Assembly: GCA_019057815.1 (NCBI GenBank)
Contig: JAHLWR010000013.1
Coordinates: 53,873 to 117,872, forward strand
Length of the DNA: 64,000 bases
Source: Candidatus Heimdallarchaeota archaeon
GTDB taxonomy: Archaea; Asgardarchaeota; Heimdallarchaeia; Heimdallarchaeales; Heimdallarchaeaceae
Direction: 5' to 3'
The position numbers and the translations under genes were made by a program. Below the pieces are notes generated by a model. The model had not been told where the DNA came from and searched no databases. It saw only the letters and a list, made by a program, of their open reading frames with translations. Positions 1-50,446 of this stretch are shown in pieces; positions within the stretch are counted from its first letter, which is position 1; every line of letters starts with the position of its first letter.

Positions 1-3000
1 CAAAATATTCCCCATTGTAGAAAACTTCCAACAAGTTTTGTACCAAACTCCAATAACTCTCTAGTACCAAATTTGAAAGTATTACCTAATTCTAAACTAC
101 TAAGAGCGTTTTGAGGGCTAAGTTTTTCGATATATTCTAATAACATTCTGTCAGATTGTGACCATGATGAGGGATTATCAAAATCAATATTTTTACCAAC
201 AGCCTCTTTCTTCCAGAACTCCCATTCTTTTGTGTTTTTGATTTTTTTGCTTAAAAGATCTTGAGCTTGATGTGAGGGTTCATCGATGTCACTTAAGACC
301 ATTAATATGTCCCCAGGAATTTGAGAGATAGCCAAACCTCGAAAGAAATTGTTAGGATCGAAAATAGCGTCACGAACATCTTGCCATAAAGCTGTAATTG
401 AGAAACGAGCAAGAAACATTTCCATAATTGTCATGAAAGTAGATTCTTTAAGACCTGTGCCTAAATTAATTCCAGGGATAACAAAGTTGTCACTCATTCC
501 AAAAAACATTTCATAACTAATTTCATCTTCGGCACCTATCACTTTGTAAATAACAATATCAGCAGATTGATTCAAAGAGTCGGGGTTTCGGACATCATTA
601 GGGTTGGTAACACCTAATTTCTTTGTGTTAGGAACATAAACAGTGGAAATATTTGCACCTAGACTATCCGAGATTACAACACTAAAACCTGTTTTTCTTA
701 GAACTTCAGCAATATATTTGACTTGGGCTGCCTCATTACCTCCAATGGCGACACCTTCAGATTTTGCTATTTCGTTAGCAATAGTCTTTAAATAAACCAT
801 AAAGAGGTTCTCACCACCAAAATTATAATTTTCGCGGTTATGAGCTCTATAATTTAGATGAAGTAACATATCAGCGTTGGATTGAACATAGGGGTATTCT
901 TCTTTGGAAACTATCCCAGTACAACCTCCAATATGAAATACCCATTCTAGTAAGAGAATAAAACGGAGTAAGTAATAATATTTTTTCTCTGCCCAATCCG
1001 TAAAGTCCCCTTTTAATAATGAACCTAAAGTGCGCATGAAGTCATTAAAGCTTAATTCTCCTGTCAAAAACGATTTTAATAAGTTAAAGATTGCTGTGAT
1101 TTTTTGCCAGAAATTAATGAAAGAAGTCTTAATTCTATTACCCCAACTAATGAGGAAATCTTTAGTTTTACTAAATACTACTTTAGCAGAAACAAGAACG
1201 TTTCTAAAGAATTGTAAAATGTATTTTCCAGGATTGCTAAAGAACTCTACAATTTTAGCTTTGAGTGTATTAAACATTGCACTTAATCCTGAAGCTATCC
1301 AGTTTGGTCCTCCTGTCATATCTAAGATGACCATCCCAACGAGCATTATTCCCGCAATAATAAATGTTTTCTTGACTATGAAGGTTAGAAAACGACCTTG
1401 TATGTTACCGTATAACATGAGTCCGCCTGTGAGTAACATTATTGAACCGAGTATAGCATATATGTGGAAGTGTTCGTCCGCGTTTTCTATCCATCTATCT
1501 AATAATTCTCCGCTCTTAAGAACATCGATAAATTGTTTAAGAGGACAGTAGAAGTTGTATCTGAGATAGTTGATAAAGTTGTTCCAAGATGATTTAACAA
1601 ACTGTAGAAAAGCACCTTCCCAATCATAATTAAGAAGATAATCTTCTAACGTTTGTTGAGCATAGAGTAGACTTTGAGGAGTGACAGTTCTTTCATCTGG
1701 AACGACATAATCGTAAGAGAACAGTTTGAGCAAAACTTGTGAAGTGAAAATAAAGTTACCATCATAATGATTGTTAAATTCAACACTAAGAGAATTAAGG
1801 AAATGAGCAATATACATTCCATTATAAAGCACATGTAATTCTTTAGTAAGAAGGTTAATAGTAATAACTCTATCTTGTAAGGTGATACGAAATTGTGTAG
1901 TATTAAAACCTTCTACGTTGTTATCAGTGATATTAAGTACTAAGTAATCGATTGGACCAGTGTTATAGTGTTCATCAAAGAGATTCCAATATTCTATGTT
2001 AATAACATCATTCAATTCTAAAGTTGTACCAACAGAAGTGATTTCCATTGTATAACTGTTTTCTTGAACAGCGAGTAGGTCGTGGTTAATACTAGTGTCT
2101 CCAGAGGTTGTTGCAGTGTATAATTTAATATTTTCTAAATCCTGTGTTTGAAGGTTTTTAACTTCTAGATTGTTAATAGATTGATAATTGCTTTGTGTTG
2201 TTGTAGAACATGGTACCATCTCTTGTAGCTCTACTTTTTGTATTTGGATTTCATGGTATTCATGAGCAGTATTTTGATCGTAAATATATCCAAAGACAGC
2301 ATAACCTATACCATCCGTTTCATCATAATCAGCAACACCTATCCAGACGATTTTAACAGTGTGAATAGCTAAACCATCACAATAAAAATAGGACATGAGA
2401 TATTTTTTACTAGAGTATGAACGACGGGCAATATCTACAGGAGCATAAGTGAAAGTGTTTGTTCCTCCCGTGTATTCGTCAAGAGCGAGAAATATTCTTC
2501 TTTGTCCTAATTTATCCATAAGATCTATGTGATAATCTGTAGGTTGAGCAACAAGTGAGATAAATTCATTGATACCTTCGATAGAAAGGGTGAAGTTGAG
2601 AGAGTTGTAAGCATTTAAGTCATTTAACACAAAAACAAACGTGTGGAATCCAGCTGTGTGCCATGTGGTAGAAATATCATCGCCATTGTATGTGTTTGTT
2701 AAATCATAAGGTTTCATAGTAAACTGGAAATTACCATTTGCATCAGCTAACAAAAGTTCATTTCTGAATGATGAAGCATTGAAATCGTTAGGTTGACGAA
2801 TAAGGAAACCATCAATGTAAATTGCTAAGAAACTAGAAAGATTGAGGTTGGAATGTAAAATATACTGCAAATCGGGAGTGATTTCGGTTAAATGTCTAAT
2901 TGTTGTGCTTACAACAATCTGAGTATCGTTAGAGTAGAAACCTGAATCTATTTGTCCTAATTCTTCTATTGTACCATAATCTGTGATGGAGGAATATCCA

Positions 3001-6000
3001 AGTGCCATGTCATTGTAAGTGATGTTGTTAAAAATTACATCGCCTGCTAAAGGAACAGCTTTCTCGAACCATTCTGTCAAGAAGTAAGACATGGAATAGT
3101 TACTATAGATTGGGATATATTCTCCGTTCCACTCTGGAATATCTATATCTCCATTTCTGAAATATTCTCCTGTTTTATCGATATAAATATCGGGATTAGA
3201 GACCGTCCATTCAGGAATAAATGTGAAGTTGTTCGAATCCAATACTGTCTTCATCGAATCTTTGAGTAGGGTAAAGGATTTGTCAAGAACAATGTTAACT
3301 TTGAAGAAGGGTTGATAATCGTTGAAAGAACTATCATTGAAAGTCGTGTGATGGATTCTAAAAATAAAAGTATGATAACCACCGTAAAGATTGTTTAAAG
3401 GTATCTTAATTTCCTTTTCTTCATATTTATTGGCAACATCATAAGAAAATTGATAAGAAACAGGATTATCTATGCTAAATTCAACATTAGTATTGATAAT
3501 TAACGTTCCTATTGATTCTTTTTCTGTTAGTACAGTGAAAGTCATATCGAATGCAAAAACGTCTGCAAAAGTGAGGTTAAGTCTCTCTTTGAGATTAATG
3601 TACCCCAAATCATCTGAAAGAATAGGTTGCCATGTACTATCAGTATTGAGTAATGCACTTGGCGTGTTTTCAGAAGGATTGATAGTTGGAAGTATAGCAT
3701 ATAGATTAAAGCCTTTTAGTTCACTTGATCCTGCAGAACAGGAGAGAGTATAATGTGTACCATCAACATAGAAATCTTTTACTTTTACTACACTATAGAA
3801 ATTACTTATGTAATCATAAGGATTAGTAACATCTAGTAAGTTTAAGGATTGTTCTGTCCCTACTTGTGTTGCACTAATGTATGCAATAAGGTTCATAAAA
3901 TTCAACGAGAAATAATGCCAATCATTGTCATCTTTAATAGGTACAGCATATTCAATATGATGATAACCAGAATAATTTGTATCGTTTAAATCATAAGGAT
4001 CGAAATTTGTAGATGTGAAATATAAATTGGCGAGAATTATCTCTAAATTAAGATTCTTCTCGTAATAGTTATAATCTTCCATATATGAAGCTTGGAGAGG
4101 TAAAGTTACTGTAAGTACATCTCCTTCAGCTATCTTATAATAGAATTCCAGACTATTTACTAGTGTAACATCGACACTTTCAACTGAAGGTATATCTATT
4201 AGATCCACTGAATATTTGGCATCAGATGGAAGAATATCAGGATTTGATGGGCTTGTATAGAGGAAGTTTGTTATCGTTTTGACTTTTCCTAAAGCTATTT
4301 TATCGAATTCTACTATATTATCGAAGTGGAGAGTGTATTTATGTAATCCTACAATGGAAAAGTCATCTAAGATGATAATAACAGGATGATTGGTTGTAAA
4401 AGCGTTATAATCTATGCAACGATAACCAAGGAATTGATCATCATCTCCATATACAGAAATATTAACAGGACCATAAAGAGGGTTAACAATTAATTGTAAG
4501 ATTCCTTTACGTGCAAAATAATCCTCTGAAAAGGTGAAAAGGCCATTATCATCAACATTGTATGACCACCCTTCTAAGTCCTTATACGAAAAGTCCGAAT
4601 TAATTACACCTATACTAACTTCTAGAAGGTAAAGAGTACCCGTGGTAGTTGACATAGAAACATGATAAGTATAACCTATGTCTATGTTAATGGTAGTTCC
4701 ATCATACTCCCACTTTTCTTCTTTTGTACCATCGTCTATGAATAATACTTGATAAGAGGAGTTGAAGTTGAAGGTGAGAGTGTAAATGTGTCCTGAATAG
4801 ATTTGATAGTCAAGTGATTGATTATCAAAGTATAAAATGTTGTCCCTTATTTCAATATTAAAGAGTTCATTATCATTGTGAGTTGTAGTAAATACAGCAT
4901 TTGTTGTATCATTGGCTATGAATGTTGTTGTAAAGGTTCCTAAACTTTCTGTATAATTACCCATAATAAAGGAGTTGCTAATGGAAGAATTGAACATTTT
5001 AAGACTATATTCTGTTTCTCCCTTTAACCAATAACTGATCTCTCCAGCACCTTGTAATCCTCTTCCATGAGAATAAGTAAGAGGAGAAGTGTAAAATTTC
5101 CCGTTTCTAATCTCTTCAATGTAAACCATGGTGTTTTCTGTCTGTATGAAAAGTTTGACTTTTGTACCACCATTAAGGTGAGGTTTCATGAAATTATTAT
5201 GATAAAAGATTTCTTCAACTATAGATTGTCCCATATCATCTTCACTATATATACTGAAGACTACATCAGAATTTTCTTTTATTTCAATACGAATCTTAAA
5301 TATCTCATCATTTTTACTAGCTTGATCATCAAAGTAAACATGAGCAAACTCTCCTAAAATATCATAACCAAATCCACCTAAATCCCAAGCGAGAGCACAT
5401 GTATGACCTAGATCGTTCATTACACCAATATATACTCTTCGGGTGGTCTGGGTGTCCCAAACATTTTGGAAAAGATTTGATAAGGTAACAAGATAATTAA
5501 CATCTTTCATATCAATATAATTTGTGCTAATTTGTCCATCGACCCATAAACCGTCTATTGACATGTAAGTATGACCTGAATCTAATGAAATATAATCACC
5601 TGTTTGTTCAGGACTGGTTGGATATATAACTAAACTATTATAGAAGAAATTAGTCCTATTAGAATAAAAACCGATATTTGATGCTTGATAACCTTGAACA
5701 GTTACACTAGTACTCGTTGCGAACCATCTTGTAGCCATACCATATTCTCCATCATTAGCTTGTTGCATGGCTCTAACTTCATCCCATTCGCTTATACCAA
5801 AAACTCTGTAACATTTGGCATAGATATCATATCTTACTTGCCCACTAGGGGTAATAGTTTTAACAATAGTAAGTTTGAGAGGTTGTAGATTCATGTTGTC
5901 TACAGAATTAGGTCCAGGATCTATACTATTACCTAAATTAACTATTTTTTGCTCGAAAAGGAGTGAATAAGTGTCACTAGCACCTTGATATTGCATTATA

Positions 6001-9000
6001 ACCAAATAAAGAGGATAAGTATAATCGATGTCTTCTACAACTTTGAAACCTATGAACAAACCATCATAGAATGAATTAGCTATATTTTCAGTAGGTAATT
6101 CCAACATCATTCCTGCAACATCTGTTCGAATATCTCCTTCGATCCAAGTACTTGGTTGCACAGACATTTCTAGTTCGAAAATAGTATTTTCATATGGGTG
6201 TGTGTCGAGGAACGCTGCCCCAGCACCACGTAGCATGTTATATGCATCACTATAGGAAAAACCGCCTTCTATCATTTGTAAATAAGTGTCAATATTTTCT
6301 TCAGGTGAATCGAAATAATAGACTTCTCTTTGCATATCAGTATTTTTTTCTATGAAACTTATACCATAAATTGCAGTAAAAGTCTCGTTGAGTTGGAGGA
6401 TAAATCCATTTATGCTGTTGTTTACCCCATAATCTGCTAAGCATTTTTCATCATATATGTTAAAATCAATAGTTTCATTGTCAATTATAACATTAATATA
6501 ATTTGAAGCAGACAAACTTATTTGCTCATATTCTTTAGAGAAACTGAAGGTTTTTTGTAATGTGATTGGACCATGTAAGAGTAAGGCTCCAAATACATTA
6601 TCAAATGAGGGAGGTTCTAAATAGAATTGCATAAAGATTTGTAGTAACACAGAACTGTCAATAGTGTTAATAAAACTAATAGGCGAATCTACAAAACCTG
6701 AAATCCAATAGTTATTAAACATTAATGGATTTGTTAGTTCTAAACCTTGATGTATTGTAATATTATACTCTACACCTTCTTCATTATGGTAATATGCTAA
6801 CAATTTTCCACCATATCGTGGCATGGCTGTGTAATTCACTAACCATGAAGGATTGTAGGGTTGTAATCCAACCATTTCTCCCTCGGTTGTTATGTTAGTT
6901 TCTATATCTGTTGGGATAACGTCGGGAACTACGGTGTTGTTGATAACTTCTCCAAGATATTTTCTAACAATGTCTCCATCAATCGGATTGACAATTCCTT
7001 GGTCATCTATTCCTTTACCAAAGGGTTCTGAACCAGCCCAGAATAAATTATTACCTCTCTCTATCCATTCTTGGAGCAGATATTTTTCAAATGGACGTCC
7101 ATAATCATCATAGTAATAATATTTCTCTAGGAGTTTAGTAGGAAGTTCATCAAAAACTACCAAAATGTACTTTTTACTACTAGTTCGTAAGGTGTTTTTC
7201 ATCCAATTCGGGAAATTTGCATCTTCAGAATAGTAATAATAAATAGGAACATCAGGATATTTAGCCTTGAAAAAACTTACAGCATTTAGTTCTTGCTGTT
7301 CTCGGGTAGGAGTGATGGCAGAACCTATAAGAAAAACAATAGCTGTATCAATATTGTTCGCATAACCAATATCTGCATAGCTGTTTTCGTTACTTTCTTC
7401 AGTATGTAAATAATTGTACTTAGCTATCTTATAGACTTCTATTTTTCTAATAGTGAAGGTTGTAGGTTTATCGAAAGATATTACTAATTGTCCAACTGAC
7501 TGATCGTTATTGGGGTATAATATCTCATACATGTTTTTATGGATTGTAACAAATCCTTGTATACGGTTAGTAAACGGTGTAATATCGTAATACTGGTTAT
7601 TAACACCTAAAGATATTGAGTTATTTTCTTCTATATCGTCTGTCATTATATCAATTGCTACAAACGGATATTCTGTTACATTTACGGGGTTGAAATTGAT
7701 GTATAGTCTTCCTTCATCATAACTAGTATGGTTTACTCTTAAGATACCGTTTTCAAAACTGACATTTGTGTTAAAGGCTATTACACGTTTATCATCAAAA
7801 ACATACATACTAAAGTAATATTCTTTAGTAAAAACATTTTCTACCCAACGTTTAGTAGTTGAATATTTATCAAAGTCTTCAGCCCATCCAAAGTCTGATG
7901 TAGAATACTCATAATCTTCTTCAGCTTCGGAATGACTAGTAATATCTGTTGCTTGTAAGGATAATAATTGTATTGGAATACGTCTATCAATCATTATTAT
8001 AACTTCATACAGTCCTTCATATCCTATTATAACGAGAGAATGACTATGGAAATCAAAATCATTATCTAAGAAAATAATTGAACCTACATATTGTGCGTCG
8101 TCAAGATTAAATATTCCATCGATTTCTAATAAGAAAATGTGGAAAGTAAGTCTTTCTGTTACGTTCTCTCCAACATAATAATTTGCGAGAGCAGTTAAAT
8201 ATAATCGTGTTTCGTTTTTTAGAAACATGTCATATGATGCTATAAAGTTTAGATCTTCAGGTGTTTCTCTTGTAATTATTGAACTGTTATCATATGAACT
8301 ACTGCTACCCAAATCTAGATATTTGAGGCTAATAATGTTGGGGAAGATTTCATTAGTATAAATTGCAGATTGTGTGATTCTTAAAGCGAATACATCAGAA
8401 TTATGGCTTACGGGAATCTCATTACTGAGTACAATAAGAGGGGCAATAGGGATATAATAATCTCCACGATATAATCCCAACAAGAGTTCAGAATCTTTTC
8501 TTCCAAATCTGAACCATATATCAGCATCGATAATACTATCATCAACATATTGAATGACTAAATACTCACCTATATAGACATTAATGGTTAGAACATCAGT
8601 AGTAATTATTTCAACCTTAAACGCTATGTTGTAGGCGTTATCTAAGAATTCAAAAGTTAGATATCCTATACAATTATAACTAATTGTTGTGTTAATATGA
8701 GCGGTCATTAAAAAGTCGTCTACAAGAACCATATCTTTCCAGAATGTTCTTCCTTTTGGTACATAGGTAAACTGTGAGAAATCAAAGAGGGTTTTTAATC
8801 CTTCATTTAGTACATAAGGTATTTCATTAGTTGCTACATTTCCATAAGCATAAGTTGCAAAATCATCAATTGTTGCAAAATCAGTACTATAATCAGGGGC
8901 TACAAAAGATGTGATAGCATTGAAAGGATGAGGATTATCAATAGGTAAGCTTTTTGTACAAACATATATTGCATTAATACCCATTGTGTTCGTAACCGTG

Positions 9001-12000
9001 TTATTTCCCAGTGAAAGTTCTTTGATTTTTATCCTATCAATATAAAGCTGTTCAATCTCATTGGTATATGTAAAAATTGTCTCAAGTTGGTTGGTTCCAG
9101 TTATGTCAGATAAAACTGACAATGTATTACCTTCTCTCATTATCCTGAAGACATTGTTATTTATATCATTAGAATGTGAAAAACTATCTACAAGAACACG
9201 ATTGATGAATAATGAGATAGTGACATGTCCTTGTTCTTCTCCTGTGAATCTAAGTTCAAAGAGATCAAGATACTGCAAATGATCTTCTAAAATAATTGAA
9301 ATTATTCCATAATTTTTATCTAACAAGTAAGTAAGTCTTGTATCTAAATAAAAATCTGTTTCAAAGGTATAATCATATGCATAGACGTTTCCGTACCAAT
9401 CTGTGCCATCTTGGAAAGGACGTTCAAAGTTAGTAGTAAGGTAAGTTGCATTTTGTAGGATGGTTTGAGAAGTATAGTAATTTATTCCTTTTATTTCCCA
9501 GTTTGAAAGATCAGAAAAGTGGTCATTTAAGATTACATATTCACTTTCCCACGGCGCATCGTATTGAGTGACAAGAGCATCTTTTAGGGTTATATCTCCT
9601 AACATCATTAATAGTGGTTCTGGGGACGCAAAATCAAAAGTAGTAATAATGTCAATGTTTTCAATTCTATAAGGTTCGATGTTTAAACTTAGATGAGGTA
9701 CTAAAATGTCTACACTGTTAATATTACTATAGAAAGTGAGTGTATTCCCTTCTTGTATCAAACGTAAGGAACTATATTGCAAAACTGTTTTTTGAATAGT
9801 AATAATGTCTGTTCCACTAGTAGAGTGTAAGCTTATTATTATTGAACTTCCAGTAAATTCTAGATGTAAATAACTATTCATATTATTAAGCGAAATTGTC
9901 AGACTTCCAATCTTATCGATTGATTCAATATTTACACGGAAATCAATCATAAAATCATAATCGGAAGAAACATTTCTAGAAAACGTTATCGCAATATTTT
10001 GTGTAAGAGTGTTTAAAGGAGTTATTTTCATGTAATTGTTCTCATTTGTTATCCCTATATCAGATACATCACAGCCATCATATGATGTTAACCAGTTTCC
10101 TGCAATATATGAATTGTACATATTTTCTTCTAATACTGTATTTACAGCTGATTCCAATGCATTATATCCCGCACTATAATAATAACTGTCAACAAATAAT
10201 GTATCTAGATAATAATTTGGATAATAATGATCATAAAATATCTCTTGTGATATAGCGATTGTATCAATCAAGAAATTTGTACTGAAAGTATGTTCCAGAA
10301 TAGTTGTACTTCTATCCAAGTCAGTTATCTGTATTTCATTTTCGTTTTTCGTAATTCGTATTTTCTTGAAAATAGATGTTGTTATTGTTTCAGTATATAG
10401 GGTATCCTCATTTATAACGATTAGAAATTCTGTGGCATTGTCTGTATCAGATAAATCTCGAAATATTATAGTGATTTTCTCATCTGTATTTCCAAACGAG
10501 ATTTGTTGGATACCTATTGAAGTAGGATCTTCACTTCCTAAAATTATAGCTATAAAATCAATAATAATATTTGAATCTAATTGTTGTTCATGACTTAAAT
10601 ATGTTCCATGGTATCCAGCTCCACTTTCTGATATCCAAAACAGATCTTTCCTCTTCAGTACATCATCTGCAAATTGAGTAGCGAGCACGTTATTTGATAA
10701 ATCTACAACATTATTAGCATTAGCAGTTACATTCCAAGCGTCAAGTGTATTGAATGTTTCACTAATTAATCTGTGGCGGAGCGTTGTATATCCAGCTTTA
10801 AATTCACATGATGCTGAGCCTAAAATAACGCGGAATATATCATATGTTCCAGCTCTGATATTGATATTCTTAATTTGTTGAAGTAGAGCAGGGGTATCTT
10901 TTGTAATTGTAAAAACAGTTGTAGAATCTACTTGGAAAGTTACAGTAGTACTTTCCTTCTTTATTGTAAAATAGTGACTATTGCCATCTGCAAGAGCAAT
11001 TTGTTCCTCATGACCGTCTATTAAAATATAATAGGTATCAAATTTTCTTCCAACAACCAAGAAAGGCTCATTGAAATTGTTTGTTAGTTCTATTTGAACA
11101 AAATCTTCGGCGGATATTGTTGTAAAATCAACATGTATTTGGAATGTGATATCTCCTGCTATGTTGACTTCTTTATTTAATACCATTCCATATTGTTCAG
11201 TTCCCATGTTTTCAATCAGTTTTATCTCTTGTAGTGTGCCATCGAGTTCATTGTATTCTACTTGTGTAAGATTCTCATCACCAAATCTTTCAGCTGTGAA
11301 GATATCAGATATTATTCTTGTTTGCCATAATGATTGCCATTGCTCTGTCTGTACATCCAGTTTTGGATAAAATATTTCATTTGTTGAATCAGTATAATCA
11401 TAAGGTGATTCATATCCTGAAGGTTCGTCACCATTATATACTAACATATCGTTATCGATGTAAGATGCGGTTCCTCTTCTATAATAGTCCCATGCAGGTC
11501 TGCTTTGTCCAAAAGGTGTAGCTCCTGCAAAACCTAACTCATCGATATATATAGGCCAATTGAAAGTTTCTACTATTTCTATCGAGAGTATAGATGTAAA
11601 CCTAATTGTTTCAGGGTTGATGGGACAGATTACTCTCTCAAATCCTTTACCATGCTCAATAACTGCTTTTGCAACAAGTGTTCTAGCTATTCCGTATCTA
11701 TCTATATCATCTATATAGAAAGCAAGTGTAACATCCTCTGGTCCTTGATTCATCGCCCGTACGTGTAATCTATCAGCTGCGTTAGGCTCTCTGCTTTCTA
11801 CGATTAATGTAGTGGTCTTGACGATACTATTGTATCCCATAAAACCTACGTATCTTATTCCAAAATATTCATCATGGATAGAGATATATTCAGAATTTGA
11901 TATGTAAACAGTAATACCTCCATTATCATAAATAATCTCTACATTGTATTCTTCGTTCAAGAGGATGGTTTCTTTTCTTTCATAAATAGAAGTATAACCA

Positions 12001-13511
12001 CTCGGATATAGTCTCACCAATCTTATTTTGTCTTCTGTGGTAGGATCTTTAATAAATTGTAAAGCATAACCACTATCGAAGATATTATCATAGTTAAATA
12101 ATATTGAGAAGATTGATTCTGTTGTGGGATCATTTTGAACAAAGATGAAAGAAGTTGAAAGTCTGTAAGAGTCGTTCATTTCCAAAGGTAAATAGGCTTT
12201 TGTTTTGAAATCAGTATGTGTAGTATTAAGCATTAATCCCTCTTCTGATGTGCATTGTGTATAGTTTTCATCATATACCCAGTTATCAAGATCGCAATCT
12301 GTGAAGTCTATATCATAAATGGGGATACTGTTTTCAAGCAAATAGGATATATATCCTCCATCTTTGTTGTTATCGACAAGTAGAACGCGGTTATTAACAA
12401 CTCTTATTCCACTTTGATCTGAAGTGACATCAGCTAATGTAGTTATTTTTGTGTCATAAAGAGATTTTGAATATTCTTCAGCATTAATTATTTCTCCTGG
12501 GGAATATCGATAATCATTTATTGTTTCATCAATATACAAATAATTTAGTATTAATCCCGTATCTATTCCTGCTGTATTGTTGTACCAAGTTATTGCTAGT
12601 TCCAAACGGATATAATGCCCAGCCCACCACGATAAATCAATAGTATCCATTGTTGGATAGTAGTTTAAATATTCAAATTCATCTACAATTTTGATGTTTT
12701 TATAGGGGTTGTCAGCATCGTAAATTGTCATCTCAATGTCATAGTAAACATATGGAGCATTCAATAGAGACGAAAACAGATAGTTTAGTGTAGGTTTATA
12801 TACGGAAGGTATTACCATATGAAAATCGAAATAGCGTTTGCCATAAGGAGCAACAGAAGGTACGTTAAAGATTCTTGCATTATGCTCTATTCCTTCTGCT
12901 GTTACTATACCATTTTCGCAAATGTAATCTTTTGCAGAAGGATATAGATCTTCATTAAAAGCTTTATCATTTGTTAATAGGTCGTATTTGTGAAATTGGG
13001 GAGTATATATACTTACTTCTTTAATGTTTAAATTATAACCATTCTCGTCATTATCAATGATTTTGATGGTAAGATATTGAGTATTTTTGAAGATATAATA
13101 ATCTATTCTAGCACCCCTTAGATGAGTGAAACTTTCTTTTGTGAAAAATATTTTGGAAGTATTGGTATCAGATATAATCAATTTATCTATTGGATCAGCA
13201 CCATTTGTAGGTGTTTCTACGGTAAGTAGCAGCTCGCTTTCTCCATTCCAACTGCTAATATCAACAACTTTTGTAGCATAACCGTTATCTGGTATATGTA
13301 GGTTATCATACCATGTTTCAAGGTTATCGCCTTTCCAACCCAAAATAGATTCGTGAAAATATGAGTCTTTCACAAAATAATATCCATTATCAAATGTATT
13401 TGGAGTTGTAATTAATATTCCTGATACATTTGAAAACGCAACCAAAAAAATTAACACTGCTGCTAACGTTACTGTTACTAATCTTTTTGCTTTATAATTA
13501 TAAGTGTCCAT
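1..13511 (-). CDS. Giant secreted/membrane protein, >4503 aa, 3' end outside the window; LamG/ConA-like beta domains, one alpha/beta domain, late hydrophobic hairpin
   Basis: Manual translation: ATG at 13511 after an AAGGA RBS, 17 nt past the upstream giant's stop, reading MDTYNYKAKRLVTVTLAAVLIFLVAFSNVSG (signal peptide). Frame spot-checked open near 10.8 kb, 7.1 kb, 5.4 kb and from 1.7 kb to base 3. An internal stop would have produced a large ORF in the track; none is listed. Confidence 0.92.
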   Translation of the reverse strand, partial: MDTYNYKAKRLVTVTLAAVLIFLVAFSNVSGILITTPNTFDNGYYFVKDSYFHESILGWKGDNLETWYDNLHIPDNGYATKVVDISSWNGESELLLTVETPTNGADPIDKLIISDTNTSKIFFTKESFTHLRGARIDYYIFKNTQYLTIKIIDNDENGYNLNIKEVSIYTPQFHKYDLLTNDKAFNEDLYPSAKDYICENGIVTAEGIEHNARIFNVPSVAPYGKRYFDFHMVIPSVYKPTLNYLFSSLLNAPYVYYDIEMTIYDADNPYKNIKIVDEFEYLNYYPTMDTIDLSWWAGHYIRLELAITWYNNTAGIDTGLILNYLYIDETINDYRYSPGEIINAEEYSKSLYDTKITTLADVTSDQSGIRVVNNRVLLVDNNKDGGYISYLLENSIPIYDIDFTDCDLDNWVYDENYTQCTSEEGLMLNTTHTDFKTKAYLPLEMNDSYRLSTSFIFVQNDPTTESIFSILFNYDNIFDSGYALQFIKDPTTEDKIRLVRLYPSGYTSIYERKETILLNEEYNVEIIYDNGGITVYISNSEYISIHDEYFGIRYVGFMGYNSIVKTTTLIVESREPNAADRLHVRAMNQGPEDVTLAFYIDDIDRYGIARTLVAKAVIEHGKGFERVICPINPETIRFTSILSIEIVETFNWPIYIDELGFAGATPFGQSRPAWDYYRRGTASYIDNDMLVYNGDEPSGYESPYDYTDSTNEIFYPKLDVQTEQWQSLWQTRIISDIFTAERFGDENLTQVEYNELDGTLQEIKLIENMGTEQYGMVLNKEVNIAGDITFQIHVDFTTISAEDFVQIELTNNFNEPFLVVGRKFDTYYILIDGHEEQIALADGNSHYFTIKKESTTVTFQVDSTTVFTITKDTPALLQQIKNINIRAGTYDIFRVILGSASCEFKAGYTTLRHRLISETFNTLDAWNVTANANNVVDLSNNVLATQFADDVLKRKDLFWISESGAGYHGTYLSHEQQLDSNIIIDFIAIILGSEDPTSIGIQQISFGNTDEKITIIFRDLSDTDNATEFLIVINEDTLYTETITTSIFKKIRITKNENEIQITDLDRSTTILEHTFSTNFLIDTIAISQEIFYDHYYPNYYLDTLFVDSYYYSAGYNALESAVNTVLEENMYNSYIAGNWLTSYDGCDVSDIGITNENNYMKITPLNTLTQNIAITFSRNVSSDYDFMIDFRVNIESIDKIGSLTISLNNMNSYLHLEFTGSSIIISLHSTSGTDIITIQKTVLQYSSLRLIQEGNTLTFYSNINSVDILVPHLSLNIEPYRIENIDIITTFDFASPEPLLMMLGDITLKDALVTQYDAPWESEYVILNDHFSDLSNWEIKGINYYTSQTILQNATYLTTNFERPFQDGTDWYGNVYAYDYTFETDFYLDTRLTYLLDKNYGIISIILEDHLQYLDLFELRFTGEEQGHVTISLFINRVLVDSFSHSNDINNNVFRIMREGNTLSVLSDITGTNQLETIFTYTNEIEQLYIDRIKIKELSLGNNTVTNTMGINAIYVCTKSLPIDNPHPFNAITSFVAPDYSTDFATIDDFATYAYGNVATNEIPYVLNEGLKTLFDFSQFTYVPKGRTFWKDMVLVDDFLMTAHINTTISYNCIGYLTFEFLDNAYNIAFKVEIITTDVLTINVYIGEYLVIQYVDDSIIDADIWFRFGRKDSELLLGLYRGDYYIPIAPLIVLSNEIPVSHNSDVFALRITQSAIYTNEIFPNIISLKYLDLGSSSSYDNSSIITRETPEDLNFIASYDMFLKNETRLYLTALANYYVGENVTERLTFHIFLLEIDGIFNLDDAQYVGSIIFLDNDFDFHSHSLVIIGYEGLYEVIIMIDRRIPIQLLSLQATDITSHSEAEEDYEYSTSDFGWAEDFDKYSTTKRWVENVFTKEYYFSMYVFDDKRVIAFNTNVSFENGILRVNHTSYDEGRLYINFNPVNVTEYPFVAIDIMTDDIEENNSISLGVNNQYYDITPFTNRIQGFVTIHKNMYEILYPNNDQSVGQLVISFDKPTTFTIRKIEVYKIAKYNYLHTEESNENSYADIGYANNIDTAIVFLIGSAITPTREQQELNAVSFFKAKYPDVPIYYYYSEDANFPNWMKNTLRTSSKKYILVVFDELPTKLLEKYYYYDDYGRPFEKYLLQEWIERGNNLFWAGSEPFGKGIDDQGIVNPIDGDIVRKYLGEVINNTVVPDVIPTDIETNITTEGEMVGLQPYNPSWLVNYTAMPRYGGKLLAYYHNEEGVEYNITIHQGLELTNPLMFNNYWISGFVDSPISFINTIDSSVLLQIFMQFYLEPPSFDNVFGALLLHGPITLQKTFSFSKEYEQISLSASNYINVIIDNETIDFNIYDEKCLADYGVNNSINGFILQLNETFTAIYGISFIEKNTDMQREVYYFDSPEENIDTYLQMIEGGFSYSDAYNMLRGAGAAFLDTHPYENTIFELEMSVQPSTWIEGDIRTDVAGMMLELPTENIANSFYDGLFIGFKVVEDIDYTYPLYLVIMQYQGASDTYSLLFEQKIVNLGNSIDPGPNSVDNMNLQPLKLTIVKTITPSGQVRYDIYAKCYRVFGISEWDEVRAMQQANDGEYGMATRWFATSTSVTVQGYQASNIGFYSNRTNFFYNSLVIYPTSPEQTGDYISLDSGHTYMSIDGLWVDGQISTNYIDMKDVNYLVTLSNLFQNVWDTQTTRRVYIGVMNDLGHTCALAWDLGGFGYDILGEFAHVYFDDQASKNDEIFKIRIEIKENSDVVFSIYSEDDMGQSIVEEIFYHNNFMKPHLNGGTKVKLFIQTENTMVYIEEIRNGKFYTSPLTYSHGRGLQGAGEISYWLKGETEYSLKMFNSSISNSFIMGNYTESLGTFTTTFIANDTTNAVFTTTHNDNELFNIEIRDNILYFDNQSLDYQIYSGHIYTLTFNFNSSYQVLFIDDGTKEEKWEYDGTTINIDIGYTYHVSMSTTTGTLYLLEVSIGVINSDFSYKDLEGWSYNVDDNGLFTFSEDYFARKGILQLIVNPLYGPVNISVYGDDDQFLGYRCIDYNAFTTNHPVIIILDDFSIVGLHKYTLHFDNIVEFDKIALGKVKTITNFLYTSPSNPDILPSDAKYSVDLIDIPSVESVDVTLVNSLEFYYKIAEGDVLTVTLPLQASYMEDYNYYEKNLNLEIILANLYFTSTNFDPYDLNDTNYSGYHHIEYAVPIKDDNDWHYFSLNFMNLIAYISATQVGTEQSLNLLDVTNPYDYISNFYSVVKVKDFYVDGTHYTLSCSAGSSELKGFNLYAILPTINPSENTPSALLNTDSTWQPILSDDLGYINLKERLNLTFADVFAFDMTFTVLTEKESIGTLIINTNVEFSIDNPVSYQFSYDVANKYEEKEIKIPLNNLYGGYHTFIFRIHHTTFNDSSFNDYQPFFKVNIVLDKSFTLLKDSMKTVLDSNNFTFIPEWTVSNPDIYIDKTGEYFRNGDIDIPEWNGEYIPIYSNYSMSYFLTEWFEKAVPLAGDVIFNNITYNDMALGYSSITDYGTIEELGQIDSGFYSNDTQIVVSTTIRHLTEITPDLQYILHSNLNLSSFLAIYIDGFLIRQPNDFNASSFRNELLLADANGNFQFTMKPYDLTNTYNGDDISTTWHTAGFHTFVFVLNDLNAYNSLNFTLSIEGINEFISLVAQPTDYHIDLMDKLGQRRIFLALDEYTGGTNTFTYAPVDIARRSYSSKKYLMSYFYCDGLAIHTVKIVWIGVADYDETDGIGYAVFGYIYDQNTAHEYHEIQIQKVELQEMVPCSTTTQSNYQSINNLEVKNLQTQDLENIKLYTATTSGDTSINHDLLAVQENSYTMEITSVGTTLELNDVINIEYWNLFDEHYNTGPIDYLVLNITDNNVEGFNTTQFRITLQDRVITINLLTKELHVLYNGMYIAHFLNSLSVEFNNHYDGNFIFTSQVLLKLFSYDYVVPDERTVTPQSLLYAQQTLEDYLLNYDWEGAFLQFVKSSWNNFINYLRYNFYCPLKQFIDVLKSGELLDRWIENADEHFHIYAILGSIMLLTGGLMLYGNIQGRFLTFIVKKTFIIAGIMLVGMVILDMTGGPNWIASGLSAMFNTLKAKIVEFFSNPGKYILQFFRNVLVSAKVVFSKTKDFLISWGNRIKTSFINFWQKITAIFNLLKSFLTGELSFNDFMRTLGSLLKGDFTDWAEKKYYYLLRFILLLEWVFHIGGCTGIVSKEEYPYVQSNADMLLHLNYRAHNRENYNFGGENLFMVYLKTIANEIAKSEGVAIGGNEAAQVKYIAEVLRKTGFSVVISDSLGANISTVYVPNTKKLGVTNPNDVRNPDSLNQSADIVIYKVIGAEDEISYEMFFGMSDNFVIPGINLGTGLKESTFMTIMEMFLARFSITALWQDVRDAIFDPNNFFRGLAISQIPGDILMVLSDIDEPSHQAQDLLSKKIKNTKEWEFWKKEAVGKNIDFDNPSSWSQSDRMLLEYIEKLSPQNALSSLELGNTFKFGTRELLEFGTKLVGSFLQWGIF

Positions 13512-13528
13512 AATATTTTCCTTTCTTT

Positions 13529-16500
13529 TCATTTAATTTTCACCTTCTCTAAAAATCGCAGGACTTTTTTTCCTACCTTTCGTCTAAAAATAATCAACGG
13601 AATGGCGATAATACTTGTTAAAGAGGACATAATTATTAATGTGTAATTGGTCTGTGTTAAGTGGTCATGGTTTAATTGAGTCGCCGTTATATTAGGATAA
13701 AGAGTTATTTTTTCTGATTGTAAATGATACCTGCTGATACTATCTATGTATGTTTCAATATACATCTCGATTTCTTCTACGGTCTGTAACGAAAGCGAGA
13801 TATCGTTTTTCTTGAAGAAACTGATAGATTGCCAAACCTTATCATTTTGATATTTGTAAAGGATTTTTGTTTCCAACACTTTACCTTGTGTCGTGATATT
13901 TATACGTGTCAGATTATTTTCTGTATTGTACGATATTATAGGTTGTAGAGGGCTGATAGTGTCTGTAATATTTAAATCATTGAAACCATAATGATAATCT
14001 TTAACAAAACTTTTTGTGAAACCAAAATAACTATGCCACAACATATCTATGTTATAAGTTTCTGTTACAAGTTTATCTAATGAAATTATAGCTTGCCAAA
14101 ACACTTTTCCGGCATTATTAGTATATCTCATAGGATAATAATATTCTGTACCTTGATCTTGTAATGTTAGTGTTATTGTACCGTAACCACTTACATCATG
14201 TAATGTCAAAGCATATTGTAAAAGATTATGATCGTTTTTCAACTCTTGAATAGTATAAGGGATATTCAATGGGCTACTATCTTGTGTATGAGTACCTTCT
14301 TCCATAACCATTGAACAACTTACTAATGGGTCGAAAGGTCCACCACCAGGGTCATATGGTGTTACCCAATAATCATACCAATCAGTAGTTATGGCATTGC
14401 TTATTATAGGATCATAAACGATAAATCTGTAATTAACAGTAGCATGAAGATTTTCGGGTAATTCTTGTCTCCAAGTAGACCAACTGTCATAATATCTACT
14501 ACCACTAAAATAATTCATCCAGAGGGATATAGGGGAAGTTGGTGAACCCTGCAAAAAAGTGTAATATTGTACTTTAACTTGGTAAATATACCAATTATCT
14601 GAAACTTTTACTTGTAGTAGTTGTCCAGCATCATAAGGTACTGGATCTCCATACATTTCTGTAACTTCATGGAAAACAGGGGATTCTGTATCTGTCCATT
14701 GAAGGGCAAATGCATCAGTCTCATACGTATCTCCACCTGCTATTGTAGCTGTACATATCGAGTAGCGGTAGGTTTCAGGCAAATATCCCCCACTATAAGA
14801 TAAACTATATTGTATATGCCACAAAGTCGTAGAATCAGATATTGAATTGGAGGTATATATAGAAGCCACATCTATCCATGTAGTACCACCATCATATGAG
14901 TATTGTAAGAAAACATAGTGTGGCCATGGTTCTGTCGCATAGTCCCAATCTCCCCAAATATTGTATGGTGGAGAATATAGTGTATAATAAAGGTCAAATA
15001 TATTAGTAGTTGTAGGGTCTATATTCTGAGGTCCAAATGTAGATAAGCCCATGTCAATGTTAGATTCACCAAACTCAGTTTCCGCTAAAGTAATAACACT
15101 ATATGAGAATTCATTATAGTAAACATCATGATCACGAGTGTATTTTATTTTAATATAATCGACTATTGCTCCTGCCCAAGCACCAGAACGAACATCAACA
15201 ATGCCTTTATCTGTTGATCCTATTGGAAGACCGTACATTACCCTCATTGCAGCTGTAAAATGAAAAGTAAATTTAACAGTATTATCATCTATTTCTTCAC
15301 CGGCATAAGAGGAAATGGATCTGTAATTAGCATCTATATCATATAGTGAAAACCAAAAACTTATCTGACAAAAGATAATTGAATCCCATGGACTGTCAGC
15401 ATCATAAATATAAACATAGAACGTTAATGAATCAGATTCGTCTGTGAATTGTAAATCTGTGTCAAGAAGAAGATTGGTAGAAGGATGAGTACTCTCATAC
15501 AGTCCTATACAAACAGGTGGTGTTGAATCACCCAAGATAAAGCTTTCATCGGAAGCACCTGTATCACCATCTGCAGTAACACTAATAGTGATAATTATTT
15601 CTTGTCCCTCAAGACAGTTAAAGATGAAATCATTTATAACAAAGTTGAAAGAATAAGATTTACTGTTTAAACCCAAACTATTTTTAGAAAAGGTGAATCT
15701 GCTATCTGTTATTGGATTAGTTCTGGATGCGCCTTTATCTACATTATAGATTGTTATAGAAACATATGCATCGCCAAATGCTGAAGCTTCAAAAACTCTG
15801 AACAGAACAGTTGTTGTACCTGATGGTGTAGGGTGATTTGGATATGAAGGAGTAATTAATATAGCGTCTATTAAAGGAGCAACATCGTCATTGAAGTGTA
15901 TTGTAGGCCATGCAGGAATGCCAGAATATATATTTATCCAATCACAATCTATCCCCAGTGAATTATCAACATATTTTATATCGATATGATATTCAATATC
16001 GCATAATGTTGAAGGTCTATCCCAAACAATATCTGTTGGAAACTTTAACTGAATATAATAATCGCGTCCTTCATAAGTTGGCAAGCCCTGATAATTCGTA
16101 CGTGTTACTGATACATCAAGAACTGTCGTACCAATTTCAAAATCGTAACCTGTGGTAGGATCCCCTGTCCAATAGTAATGACCAATAATAAACAATGTAT
16201 TATCGGTAGAACCATCCCAAGTTGTCTTGATTGTAGGATTTATCTCTCCTACATCTATTACATATCTTAAAGTTAATTGAGCATAACTAGTACTGCTTAG
16301 TGCTATGCTAGTATCAGTTATTGTATGTTTCACAGAGACAGGATTAGTATCAATTACATCATTGATATCCAACTCCAACATATTGGCCGTATTTATAGGT
16401 TCATAACTCATTTGATTTGCATAACCACCTACCAAACCATACCACGCATAATTTACTCTGTCAAATACCTCAAAATAATATTTGGAATTATAACTCCCTA

Positions 16501-25878: not shown

Positions 25879-26487
25879 TCACATTCTGTTTAATGACAAA
25901 TATTGTTCTTCCTCACTTTTTATTGATCGTTCAATAAAAGAAAAAGAAGACTCATTAGCATACTCTTTATCTTTATTCAAATATAACTGAAAATTTAGGG
26001 AGAACGAAGGAAGGTTTTTATTTTCTAAAACCCTATCTATTACACCAAACCCTACTTCCTTGCATTCTTTTCCCTTTTCAAGTCGTATGTAGCTATTGGG
26101 GGGATAGTGGGAATAGAAGAAATTGTAAAGAAGAAAGGTTCCGTTAATACCACATTCTTGCTCTTCCCAGATATATACAGGTTGTGAGAACTGTGTAGGC
26201 TTAAAATTCTCAAAAAAGTAAAGTTGAAAATGTGTACTAAAATAATTGTAAAAGTAGCCATCAAACTGTTTTGAAACAATTTTGTTTTGAGTTTTCATTG
26301 TTGTCATACTTCTTTGTTTGTAGGAAGATAGTTTGACGGAACCTTCGTAATAATTACTAGTTGAATAAAAAGTTTCATATTTAAAGGAGGTAAATTTTTT
26401 TTCTTCCAAAAAACCCTCAATATTTGTGTAAAAACTCTCTAAAAACATATTATCACTCCCCTTTGGTGGAAACTTCAGTAGTTTCAA
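25879..26487 (-). CDS. Hypothetical protein (probable start ATG 26448)
   Basis: ORF lies in the operon; GGGGAG RBS precedes MFLESF just after the ParA stop. Confidence 0.7.
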   Translation of the reverse strand: MKLLKFPPKGSDNMFLESFYTNIEGFLEEKKFTSFKYETFYSTSNYYEGSVKLSSYKQRSMTTMKTQNKIVSKQFDGYFYNYFSTHFQLYFFENFKPTQFSQPVYIWEEQECGINGTFLLYNFFYSHYPPNSYIRLEKGKECKEVGFGVIDRVLENKNLPSFSLNFQLYLNKDKEYANESSFSFIERSIKSEEEQYLSLNRM

Positions 26488-36776: not shown

Positions 36777-36967
36777 TAAATCACACTTAAATAAACTCTT
36801 TATCGAATATATATTTTGTGTAACCAATTCTTCCAATAATATTCCTTACTAGATTATTTTTCGAGTTTATATACCAATTTGAGAATAATGAGGTAAACCC
36901 ATCCGTTCTGATATCTTCCTATCTTCAAAAAATCTAAACAAGAATAACTCAAGGGTTAGAATCTCTT

Positions 36968-43302: not shown

Positions 43303-43508
43303 TGTTTACATCCGGACAAACAAATATCAGATATGAATATGAAAGATAAGTCTTGTGGTTACAACTTGTATGTGACCTAGTTTATAAAAACTAAAGGTGT
43401 ATTGTTTCTAGCTTGCTTAATAATGCTGAAAAATGTTTCTTAAAAATTCGCAAATTTGAGCATCTAAATAAAGTCAAATCAAATGAAAAAGTGAATAGTA
43501 TCCGTATT

Positions 43509-47726: not shown

Positions 47727-47803
47727 AAAAGATTTGTTCAAACTACATGAAGATTAATTTATTTGATAAAATTTTTAAACAATAAAGAATCTATTAGTAT
47801 ATT

Positions 47804-50428: not shown

Positions 50429-50446
50429 TAATCTGAATGAAAATTA

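What the first reader, a model, noticed from the sequence alone, without database searches (positions are those of the whole stretch)
1..13511. Unlisted giant ORF of more than 4500 aa fills the first 13.5 kb
The ORF track shows only short shadow ORFs here, but one minus-strand frame runs from ATG 13511 off the left edge. It has a signal peptide and repeated ConA/LamG-like segments (e.g. LADGNSHYFTIKKESTTVTFQVDSTTVF near 10.95 kb). With the 3224-aa neighbour this gives over 23 kb of twin giant surface genes.
Basis: seen in the sequence. Interest (0 to 1): 0.7.

Follow-up and report, generated by a model that had tools for sequence, protein, structure and literature searches.

The report
Aloposon-type giant surface protein gene
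The open frame is a real 6,010-codon gene of a Heimdall-group Asgard archaeon, the second of the published but unexplained "aloposon" twin giant genes. It combines sugar-binding-type outer modules, a membrane segment and a fast-changing end piece that avoids sugar-attachment sites.

Summary
The minus-strand frame is open from ATG 13532 to the left edge and runs 4.5 kb further, giving 6,010 aa in all.

It is a conserved gene. There is a full-length paralog in the same genome and 6,100-6,200-aa homologs in three related genomes, one of them Ca. Heimdallarchaeum endolithica PR6.

With the 3,224-aa neighbour, a membrane subtilase and a ParA/MinD ATPase, it matches the "aloposon" twin giants (Otus/Ephialtes; Wu et al. 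2022). Their function is unknown. This scan has already reported aloposon giants at other loci.

Parts of the protein:
- signal anchor;
- about 4,000-aa acidic ectodomain, with at least three related ConA-like modules (one modelled, pLDDT 84);
- three conserved hydrophobic helices;
- a conserved 430-aa domain that marks the family;
- a 1,370-aa tail.

The tail diverges far faster than the rest, with a sharp break near aa 4640. It nearly lacks N-x-S/T sites (7 against 59 expected in five homologs) and keeps an invariant D...ExK triad.

Likeliest function is a contact-dependent surface device with an exchangeable end module. This is inferred, not shown.

The parts
3..13532 (-). First 4,510 codons of the 6,010-codon giant gene. 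The last 1,500 codons lie left of the window, at G000:C39:49372-53874.
   Evidence: Full-length homologs.
13540..13547 (-). Shine-Dalgarno-like GAAGGTGA 8 nt before ATG 13532. This ATG overlaps the stop of the upstream giant gene (ATGA at 13529-13532).
13410..13466 (-). Signal peptide or N-terminal anchor, aa 23-41
   Evidence: Kyte-Doolittle mean 2.46 over 19 residues, preceded by K/R-rich residues.
8988..10793 (-). Three related ConA-like modules: aa 914-1109, 1128-1303 and 1327-1515
   Evidence: hhalign gives A~C 95% and B~C 82%. AF2 model of aa 1325-1520 has pLDDT 84 and pTM 0.85. Foldseek finds GH16 glucanases, L-type lectins and neurexin LNS (323 hits at E<=1e-3). In the ESM Atlas the best match is a phage Dit protein with carbohydrate-binding modules, TM 0.80.
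10818..11402 (-).
   Evidence: Aligns in pattern with the other units, but profile support is below 1%. Unproven.
8331..8909 (-). Possible further module, aa 1542-1734
   Evidence: Weak profile link to unit C: 12-26%.
11781..12329 (-). Module aa 402-584, related to module aa 2971-3143
   Evidence: hhalign N~Z 77-88%. Fold not modelled.
4104..4622 (-). Module aa 2971-3143, related to module aa 402-584
1317..1463 (-). Two strongly hydrophobic helices, aa 4024-4040 and 4056-4072
   Evidence: Present in all four full-length homologs.
921..971 (-). Third hydrophobic helix, aa 4188-4204, ending in an I-G-G-C motif. It follows a 115-aa basic amphipathic stretch.
   Evidence: The Cys is Met in the distant homolog P0008.
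3..905 (-). Conserved domain from aa 4210; it runs on to aa ~4640 outside the window. Its roughly 90-aa core, about aa 4340-4440, is shared by all 'second giants' of this archaeal family.
   Evidence: 52% identity between paralogs. Invariant motifs. Core shared with the C7 and C38 giants and with P0008-P0011. dN/dS 0.11-0.12.
13529..23203 (-). First giant, 3,224 aa: signal peptide, Ig-like repeats and a C-terminal anchor. There is no N-x-S/T site between aa 1204 and 3079 (window 13970-19591).
   Evidence: The same sequon gap is seen in its homologs.
23185..25836 (-). Membrane-anchored S8 subtilase, 883 aa
   Evidence: Peptidase_S8, E 1.9e-35. Kept in the C16, C7 and PR6 loci.
25879..26487 (-). 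202-aa protein of no known family, partner of the ParA gene
   Evidence: 69-71% identical copies at the C7 and C38 loci. No family hit.
26453..27400 (-). MinD/ParA-type ATPase, 315 aa
   Evidence: AAA_31 5.6e-26 and CbiA 1.6e-13. phrog_164, ParA-like. 81-85% identical copies at the C7 and C38 loci.

Best explanation
WHAT IT IS (about 0.9). This is a real 6,010-aa gene of a Heimdallarchaeaceae (Asgard) archaeon. It is the second gene of an aloposon-type twin-giant cassette in the sense of Wu et al. 2022. The cassette order is ParA/MinD ATPase, a 202-aa protein, a membrane S8 subtilase, a 3,224-aa type-I Ig-repeat protein, and then this gene, which is translationally coupled to the one before it.

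Parts of the protein:
1. A Sec-type signal or anchor.
2. An acidic beta-rich ectodomain of about 4,000 aa, with at least three ConA-like modules shaped like carbohydrate-binding modules.
3. Three conserved hydrophobic helices with a basic amphipathic stretch between the second and third.
4. A conserved 430-aa domain that marks the family.
5. A 1,370-aa K-rich C-terminal module.

The C-terminal module diverges much faster than the rest and begins at a sharp break near aa 4640. It almost lacks N-glycosylation sequons and keeps an invariant D4990...E5023-x-K5025 triad. It also exists as a separate leaderless protein in a related genome.

HOW IT MOST LIKELY WORKS (inference, about 0.4). The two giants and the subtilase build a cell-surface device. 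The lectin-like modules bind glycans of another cell. The C-terminal module is an exchangeable, glycan-free payload or recognition module that passes the membrane. This is the logic of bacterial polymorphic toxin or contact-dependent systems, and the payload may be a PD-(D/E)xK-type nuclease.

Shown: the gene, the family, the module fold, the break in divergence, the sequon avoidance and the triad. Inferred: export, delivery, enzymatic activity and the pairing of the two giants.
For: Gene and family:
- The frame is open over 6,010 codons.
- A paralog aligns end to end at 33% identity.
- Intact homologs of 6,099-6,210 aa occur in G003 and G005. G005 is CP084167.1, Ca. H. endolithica PR6.
- dN/dS is 0.11-0.28 over aa 1-4640.
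- The aloposon definition was read in PMC8813620. ParA, the subtilase and the tandem giants are found here.

Ectodomain fold.

Exchangeable tail:
- Identity to the same-genus ortholog drops from about 95% to about 60% at aa ~4640.
- The same step occurs in the independent paralog pair.
- Nucleotide identity is 0.95-0.96 before the break and 0.74-0.82 after it.
- Differences at four-fold sites are 0.08-0.09 in the ectodomain, 0.23-0.30 in the tail and 0.13-0.18 in flanking genes.
- The tail is not alignable in the distant giant P0008.

Sequon avoidance:
- Tails have 3, 1, 2, 1 and 0 N-x-S/T sites against 11-13 expected each. Five control motifs are near expectation, and the ectodomain has 46 against 48.
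- The genome-wide observed/expected ratio is 1.08.
- The same avoidance is found in a stretch of the first giants that must be extracellular.

Triad: D, E and K are among only 41 invariant columns in 1,200, across six sequences that are 19-25% identical, apart from the same-genus ortholog at 61%.
Against: - Three conserved hydrophobic segments after an outside ectodomain predict a cytoplasmic tail. The tail's composition is also cytoplasm-like.
- The stand-alone tail homolog P0013 has no signal peptide or membrane helix, yet it is also sequon-free. Sequon avoidance alone therefore does not prove export.
- No toxin, nuclease or any other family matches the tail in Pfam, NCBIfam, PADLOC, PHROGs or by PDB sequence.
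- No conserved small immunity-like gene follows the giant. The downstream genes differ from locus to locus.
- The tail is far larger than known toxin tips.
- Evidence that this copy is mobile is weak. I found no integrase, no terminal repeats, and the G003 copy sits near orthologous flank genes.
Confidence: 0.6

Rival explanations
1. It is an adhesion or signalling receptor with a true cytoplasmic tail. The ectodomain binds glycans outside, the three helices anchor the protein, and the 1,800 C-terminal residues stay inside as a docking or signalling platform that simply evolves fast.
For: Three conserved hydrophobic segments give an out-in-out-in path. At the membrane segment the composition shifts from acidic and Y/N/T-rich to K-rich. 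The stand-alone tail homolog has no signal peptide. Ras-family GTPase genes lie just downstream.
Against: A cytoplasmic domain has no reason to avoid N-x-S/T specifically, and the rest of the proteome does not. Synonymous divergence in the tail is 2-3 times that of the ectodomain, which relaxed constraint alone does not explain. The downstream GTPase is not kept at the other loci.
Confidence: 0.3
2. It is structural or transfer machinery of the mobile element itself. The giants would form a surface or bridge structure that moves the aloposon, or a related virus such as HeimV2, between cells, and ParA would partition the element.
For: Wu et al. describe aloposons as transposons related to the virus-like HeimV2. 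The ParA + 202-aa module is present at three loci in this genome at 82-91% DNA identity, while the giants differ. The membrane segment gives a weak tape-measure PHROG hit, E 0.004. The module fold resembles carbohydrate-binding modules of phage Dit proteins.
Against: No integrase, transposase, replication or capsid gene was found in the cassette, and there are no terminal repeats. The PHROG hit is at chance level and lies on hydrophobic and amphipathic helices. There is no tRNA near the sister loci.
Confidence: 0.1
3. It is not a functional gene: a chance open frame, an assembly chimera or a decaying pseudogene.
For: No known family matches any part of it. The language-model recognition score is low.
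Against: The frame is open over 6,010 codons in a 33% G+C genome. Four full-length homologs keep intact frames. There is purifying selection. A confident domain model was obtained. The same gene appears in an independent assembly.
Confidence: 0.01

Closest known systems
Aloposon twin giants Otus and Ephialtes of Ca. Heimdallarchaeum endolithica and aukensis (Wu et al. 2022, Nat Microbiol, PMC8813620)
   Same: Tandem 3,000-6,000-aa genes lie behind a MinD/ParA ATPase gene. This giant is 34.5% identical over 5,605 aa to a 6,099-aa ORF of PR6, whose 2,968-aa and subtilase neighbours also match. A tRNA gene lies downstream.
   Different: The host is another genus of the same GTDB family. Only three co-oriented upstream genes are present, not four. 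The tRNA is 1.8 kb away with other genes in between, and I saw no sign of recent insertion. The paper gives no architecture or function. The modules, the break in divergence, the sequon avoidance and the triad described here are additions.
Bacterial polymorphic toxin systems (CdiA of contact-dependent inhibition, Rhs/YD proteins); comparison from general knowledge
   Same: A very large conserved N-terminal surface part is followed by a sharply delimited, fast-diverging C-terminal module. There are several paralogous loci per genome. A semi-conserved D-H-Y-x-P-P motif lies within about 30 residues before the break.
   Different: There is no recognised toxin domain, no pre-toxin motif of a known type, no evident immunity gene and no two-partner or T6SS-type secretion partner. 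The variable part is 1,370 aa, and hydrophobic helices lie in front of it.
ConA-like lectin/glucanase fold: GH16 lichenases and laminarinases, L-type lectins (VIP36, ERGIC-53), LamG/LNS domains, and the carbohydrate-binding modules of siphophage Dit proteins
   Same: Same beta-sandwich jelly-roll fold. PDB matches reach probability 1.00 with TM 0.5-0.66, and the ESM Atlas match reaches TM 0.80 with rmsd 2.6 over 185 residues.
   Different: No sequence-family membership. The GH16 catalytic E-x-D-x-x-E motif is absent. Sugar binding is untested.
Giant repetitive surface adhesins of bacteria (LapA, SiiE, MpIBP type); comparison from general knowledge
   Same: Multi-thousand-residue, acidic, beta-rich cell-surface proteins with lectin-type modules.
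   Different: Those are near-identical tandem Ig-like repeats exported by type 1 secretion, without a central membrane segment or a large variable tail. Here BLAST finds no internal repeats at all.

Membership tests
Aloposon (Wu et al. 2022) | Tandem genes for proteins of 3,000-6,000 aa | tested here: met
   3,224 aa plus 6,010 aa, on the same strand with an ATGA overlap.
Aloposon (Wu et al. 2022) | MinD/ParA-like ATPase gene among the genes upstream of the giants | tested here: met
   Window 26453-27400 (-): AAA_31 5.6e-26, CbiA/ParA/MipZ.
Aloposon (Wu et al. 2022) | [quoted passage not shown] | tested here: inconclusive
   Three co-oriented genes were found: ParA, the 202-aa gene and the S8 subtilase. 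The sister loci C7 and C38 share 2.7 kb more upstream that this locus lacks.
Aloposon (Wu et al. 2022) | Integration at a tRNA gene downstream of the giants | tested here: inconclusive
   tRNA-His lies 1.8 kb downstream with three ORFs in between. No repeat of its sequence is found at the ParA side. No tRNA lies near the C16, C7 or C38 loci, although intron-bearing tRNAs may be missed.
Aloposon (Wu et al. 2022) | Homology to the giant proteins of Ca. Heimdallarchaeum | tested here: met
   34.5% identity over 5,605 aa to the 6,099-aa ORF of CP084167.1 at 2,419,105-2,437,404. Which named aloposon that ORF belongs to could not be checked.
Aloposon (Wu et al. 2022) | Mobility (transposition between sites) | tested here: inconclusive
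   The flanks differ between genomes and several loci occur per genome. But no integrase or terminal repeats were found, and the G003 copy is near orthologous flank genes.
ConA-like lectin/glucanase superfamily | Jelly-roll beta-sandwich fold | tested here: met
   Model of aa 1325-1520 with pLDDT 84; fold matches.
ConA-like lectin/glucanase superfamily | Match to a sequence family (Laminin_G, GH16 or similar) | tested here: not met
   No Pfam hit at E<=0.01. The best hits are single members at E 0.017-0.09. A PDB profile search finds nothing relevant.
GH16 glucanases | Catalytic E-x-D-x-x-E strand motif | tested here: not met
   No such conserved motif in the 28-row unit alignment.
Polymorphic toxins (CdiA/Rhs type) | Conserved N-terminal part and variable C-terminal part with a sharp boundary | tested here: met
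   Step at aa ~4640 in two paralog pairs.
Polymorphic toxins (CdiA/Rhs type) | Recognisable toxin domain at the C-terminus | tested here: not met
   No family hit. Only an invariant D...ExK triad.
Polymorphic toxins (CdiA/Rhs type) | Cognate immunity gene directly downstream | tested here: inconclusive
   The downstream genes are unrelated between loci: a Ras GTPase here, others elsewhere. ORFs under 70 aa were not examined.
PD-(D/E)xK nucleases | D ... (D/E)-x-K catalytic triad | tested here: met
   D4990, E5023 and K5025 are invariant in six sequences.
PD-(D/E)xK nucleases | Alpha-beta-beta-beta-alpha-beta core fold | not testable with these tools
No sequence hit.
Lipoprotein signal (lipobox) | [LVI][ASTVIG][GAS]C after a basic n-region and a hydrophobic h-region | tested here: inconclusive
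   A unique I/V-G-G-C site at aa 4201-4204 is present in the four core homologs. The Cys is Met in the distant homolog P0008 and absent in the C7 giant.

The most novel reading that the evidence does not exclude
The aloposon twin giants are an archaeal counterpart of contact-dependent polymorphic toxin systems. A lectin-studded surface fibre of an Asgard archaeon would export and deliver an exchangeable, glycosylation-free, nuclease-like module of about 1,400 aa into neighbouring cells. The avoidance of N-x-S/T sites would be a sequence signature of polypeptides that must cross the archaeal membrane without being glycosylated.
Probability: 0.3. Interest if true: 0.8.

Novelty: new member of a known kind. 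Interest (0 to 1): 0.5.

Why it matters
Aloposon giants are among the largest genes of the archaea closest to eukaryotes, and no function has been proposed for them in the papers I could search.

This copy gives concrete, testable handles:
- a lectin-type fold in the ectodomain;
- a family-defining domain next to the membrane;
- a sharply bounded exchangeable tail with a nuclease-like triad;
- an unusual, specific avoidance of glycosylation sites, shared by the tail and by the membrane-near half of the partner giant.

If the tail is exported, this would point to cell-to-cell conflict or recognition machinery in Asgard archaea. If it is not exported, the sequon avoidance still needs a new explanation.

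Tried and rejected
- Pfam, NCBIfam, PADLOC, PHROGs and PDB sequence searches on every part gave nothing above chance.
- Two ESM Atlas feature searches gave nothing usable.
- AlphaFold on the membrane and juxtamembrane region (aa 3941-4660) with a 6-row alignment failed, with pLDDT 40. That model was not used.
- BLAST self-comparison found no internal repeats. Only profile comparison did. An HMM of the units found no further units, and none in other giants of the genome.
- Large-database searches found almost no relatives: 2 proteins among 5.8 billion in the near-length search, 5 among 1.84 billion representatives, 1 shorter protein, and only itself for the stand-alone tail homolog. Deep alignments were therefore impossible.
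- A search for att-like direct or inverted repeats between the tRNA-His side and the ParA side found none.
- The lipoprotein-signal idea for I-G-G-C at aa 4204 was dropped as a family feature, because the Cys is not kept in P0008 or in the C7 giant.
- The supplementary files of PMC8813620 do not give aloposon coordinates.
- Complex prediction was not used. The parts that might touch are far above its size limit.
Full report
**Observation**

With open ends allowed, the ORF list shows one minus-strand frame, window 3..13532, of 4,510 codons without a stop. It abuts the 3,224-aa gene at 13529..23203. The window is 30-35% G+C. About 7% of random codons would then be stops, so chance is excluded.

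The window is G000:C39:53873-117872. In the contig the frame runs on to 49372, which makes 6,010 aa.

ATG 13532 has GAAGGTGA 8 nt upstream and overlaps the upstream stop as ATGA. Public gene calls use both starts.

**Is it a gene?**

- The same genome holds a 5,978-aa paralog on contig C16 that aligns end to end at 33% identity.
- In the GTDB family of the window, intact homologs of 6,210 aa (G003) and 6,099 aa (G005) exist. There are also two contig-cut copies in the sister species G001: a 90%-identical ortholog, and the ortholog of the C16 paralog.
- Against G001, dN/dS is 0.11-0.28 over aa 1-4640.

The gene is therefore real and under selection.

**Organism and distribution**

- An archaeal 16S gene is present.
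- Record titles name G005 as Ca. Heimdallarchaeum endolithica PR6 (CP084167.1, 3,326,783 bp) and G001 as a Ca. Heimdallarchaeota MAG.
- A profile of the conserved membrane-near region finds the family only in the window's GTDB family: 5 of 30 other genomes, against 0 of 52 genomes in six other families of the class.
- It finds 5 proteins among 1.84 billion representatives.
- A word-indexed search of 5.8 billion proteins finds only the gene itself and the G003 copy.

**Known context**

A first-reader note of this scan pointed me to aloposons. Wu et al. 2022 (PMC8813620) define them by three features: tandem genes for 3,000-6,000-aa proteins (Otus and Ephialtes), a tRNA site downstream, and four upstream genes that include a MinD/ParA-like ATPase. 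They give no function. Later papers add nothing on the giants.

The minus-strand order here is:
- ParA/MinD, 26453-27400;
- a 202-aa protein, 25879-26487;
- a membrane-anchored S8 subtilase, 23185-25836;
- the 3,224-aa protein;
- the giant.

tRNA-His lies 1.8 kb beyond the giant's stop. A Ras-family GTPase gene, a cytidylyltransferase gene and a 93-aa ORF lie in between.

The PR6 homolog has the same subtilase, a roughly 3,000-aa gene and a roughly 6,000-aa gene in the same order.

The genome has at least three more such loci:
- C16: subtilase, 3,157 aa, 5,978 aa.
- C7: ParA, 202-aa homolog, subtilase, 1,560 aa, 2,576 aa, 5,237 aa.
- C38: ParA, 202-aa homolog, 2,079 aa, 4,635 aa.

ParA and the 202-aa protein are 81-85% and 69-71% identical between loci. 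The giants of C7 and C38 share only a core of about 100 aa with this one.

Evidence that this copy is mobile is weak. I found no integrase, no terminal repeats, and partly conserved flanks in G003.

**Architecture**

1. Signal or anchor: aa 23-41.

2. Ectodomain: aa ~42-4020.
- It is acidic (net about -8 per 100 residues) and Y/N/T-rich.
- BLAST sees no internal repeats.
- Profile comparison links aa 914-1109, 1128-1303 and 1327-1515 at 82-95%, and links aa 402-584 with aa 2971-3143 at 77-88%.
- I aligned seven putative units from four homologs, 28 rows in all, and used this as the input alignment. AlphaFold then gave a confident all-beta model of aa 1325-1520 (pLDDT 84, pTM 0.85).
- Foldseek against the PDB gives 323 hits at E<=1e-3. 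Those listed are mostly GH16 glucanases, L-type lectins, legume lectins and other ConA-like folds such as neurexin LNS.
- In the ESM Atlas the closest shape is a siphophage Dit protein with carbohydrate-binding modules, TM 0.80.
- No sequence family matches, and the GH16 catalytic motif is absent.

3. Membrane segment.
- Three hydrophobic segments are kept in all four homologs: aa 4024-4040, 4056-4072 and 4188-4204.
- A basic amphipathic stretch of about 115 aa lies between the second and the third.

4. Family-marking domain: aa 4210-4640.
- It is the best-conserved part, with many invariant residues.
- Its core of about 90 aa is the only piece shared with the C7 and C38 giants, a second PR6 giant and the distant 6,085-aa P0008.
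- AlphaFold failed on this region.

5. Tail: aa 4641-6010. It is K-rich and poor in Tyr.

**The tail is special in three ways**

First, divergence.
- Identity to the G001 ortholog falls from about 95% to about 60% within some 30 residues around aa 4640, after a D-H-Y-x-P-P motif.
- The paralog pair C16/G001:C44 shows the same step.
- dN/dS rises to 0.3-0.5.
- At four-fold degenerate sites of unchanged residues, divergence is 0.23-0.30 in the tail, 0.08-0.09 in the ectodomain and 0.13-0.18 in flanking housekeeping genes.
- This fits exchange of tails by recombination better than relaxed constraint alone.
- The tail of P0008 is not alignable.

Second, N-x-S/T avoidance.
- Sequons are almost absent from the tails of five homologs: 3, 1, 2, 1 and 0, against 11-13 expected each. 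Five control motifs sit near expectation, and the ectodomain has 46 against 48.
- Genome-wide the observed/expected ratio is 1.08.
- The same avoidance marks a long, necessarily extracellular stretch of every first giant. Here there is no sequon between aa 1204 and 3079, with about 16 expected (my estimate from the composition). Similar gaps of 880-1,780 aa occur in the C16, C7, C38, PR6 and G003 homologs.
- I saw this before reading that other reports of this scan had noted sugar-site-free tails at other aloposon loci.

Third, a conserved triad.
- An alignment of six tails, 19-25% identical apart from the same-genus ortholog at 61%, has only 41 invariant columns. Among them are D4990, E5023 and K5025.
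- This D...ExK triad is compatible with a PD-(D/E)xK nuclease.

**A stand-alone tail**

G003 encodes a separate 1,207-aa homolog of the tail, 32.5% identical to the tail of its own giant over the full length. It has no signal peptide and no membrane helix, and it too has 0 sequons against 8.7 expected. Its neighbour is a secreted protein with 36 sequons against 13 expected.

This shows that the tail is an autonomous module. It also means that sequon avoidance does not by itself prove that the tail leaves the cell through the giant's own signal.

**Reading**

- About 0.9: this is a new member of the published aloposon twin-giant family, with the architecture described above.
- About 0.4: a contact-dependent surface device whose exchangeable, glycan-free C-terminal module is exported or delivered, on the logic of polymorphic toxins.
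- About 0.3: an adhesion receptor whose tail stays in the cytoplasm. The three-helix count and the leaderless homolog favour this, but it leaves the sequon avoidance unexplained.
- About 0.1: machinery of the mobile element itself.
- The artefact reading is excluded.

**Novelty and limits**

The gene family is published, and this scan has already reported aloposon giants at other loci and in other genomes. The finding itself is therefore a new member of a known kind. The module fold, the break in divergence, the sequon pattern in both giants and the stand-alone tail are additions that make the function testable.

Limits: alignments are shallow (4-6 sequences), the comparisons between G000 and G001 are two related pairs, the topology rests on hydropathy only, and no experiment backs any step of the mechanism.

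Noticed in passing
window 13970-19591 (aa 1205-3078 of the 3,224-aa gene): The membrane-near 1,875 aa of the first giant contain no N-x-S/T site, with about 16 expected, although they lie between the signal peptide and the C-terminal anchor. Homologs at C16, C7, C38, PR6 and G003 have the same gap, while their N-terminal parts are sequon-rich (50 sites in the first 1,683 aa in PR6).
   Followed up: partly
window 41338-49510: A Dnd-like defence cluster: a ResIII/SNF2 helicase, a PAPS-reductase-type (DndC-like) gene, an AAA_23 SMC-like (DndD-like) gene and a DndB-family gene. The cassette therefore sits beside a variable island.
   Followed up: no
window 33681-36836: A 1,051-aa protein with six NosD/right-handed beta-helix repeats, another large probable surface protein.
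   Followed up: no
L005:13611-14144 (-) and L005:11321-11836 (+), left of the window: Two Ras-family small GTPase genes flank the tRNA-His region. One lies 229 nt downstream of the giant on the same strand. It is not kept downstream of the homologs.
   Followed up: partly
L053:6663-10283 (G003:C41): A stand-alone, leaderless, sequon-free 1,207-aa homolog of the giant's tail. It lies next to a GT2 glycosyltransferase gene, LRR protein genes and a 992-aa secreted protein with 36 sequons.
   Followed up: partly
G005:C1:1920471-1920782 and 1204912-1205253 (L051, L052): Small ORFs of 126 and 141 aa in Ca. H. endolithica PR6 resemble the last ~100 residues of the giant at 28-35% identity. The extreme C-terminus may therefore be a separate small domain.
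   Followed up: no
G000:C7:~49700-53760 and G000:C38:181501-185600: The C7 and C38 cassettes share 4.1 kb at 91% DNA identity. This reaches 2.7 kb upstream of ParA and runs beyond the stretch I cut out. The window's cassette shares only 1.3-1.4 kb, covering ParA from codon 30 and the 202-aa gene.
   Followed up: partly
L018 (G001:C114), both contig ends: The translated contig ends read TLSLHDALPIF and EEHTSELQSRGLI. From my own knowledge these are typical translations of sequencing-adaptor remnants, so the ends of that public contig are probably not genomic.
   Followed up: no
G005:C1:2418554-2419108 and G003:C6:90857-91348: In PR6 and G003 a 163-184-aa ORF sits between the two giants and overlaps the start of the second one. 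The window's cassette has no such ORF.
   Followed up: no
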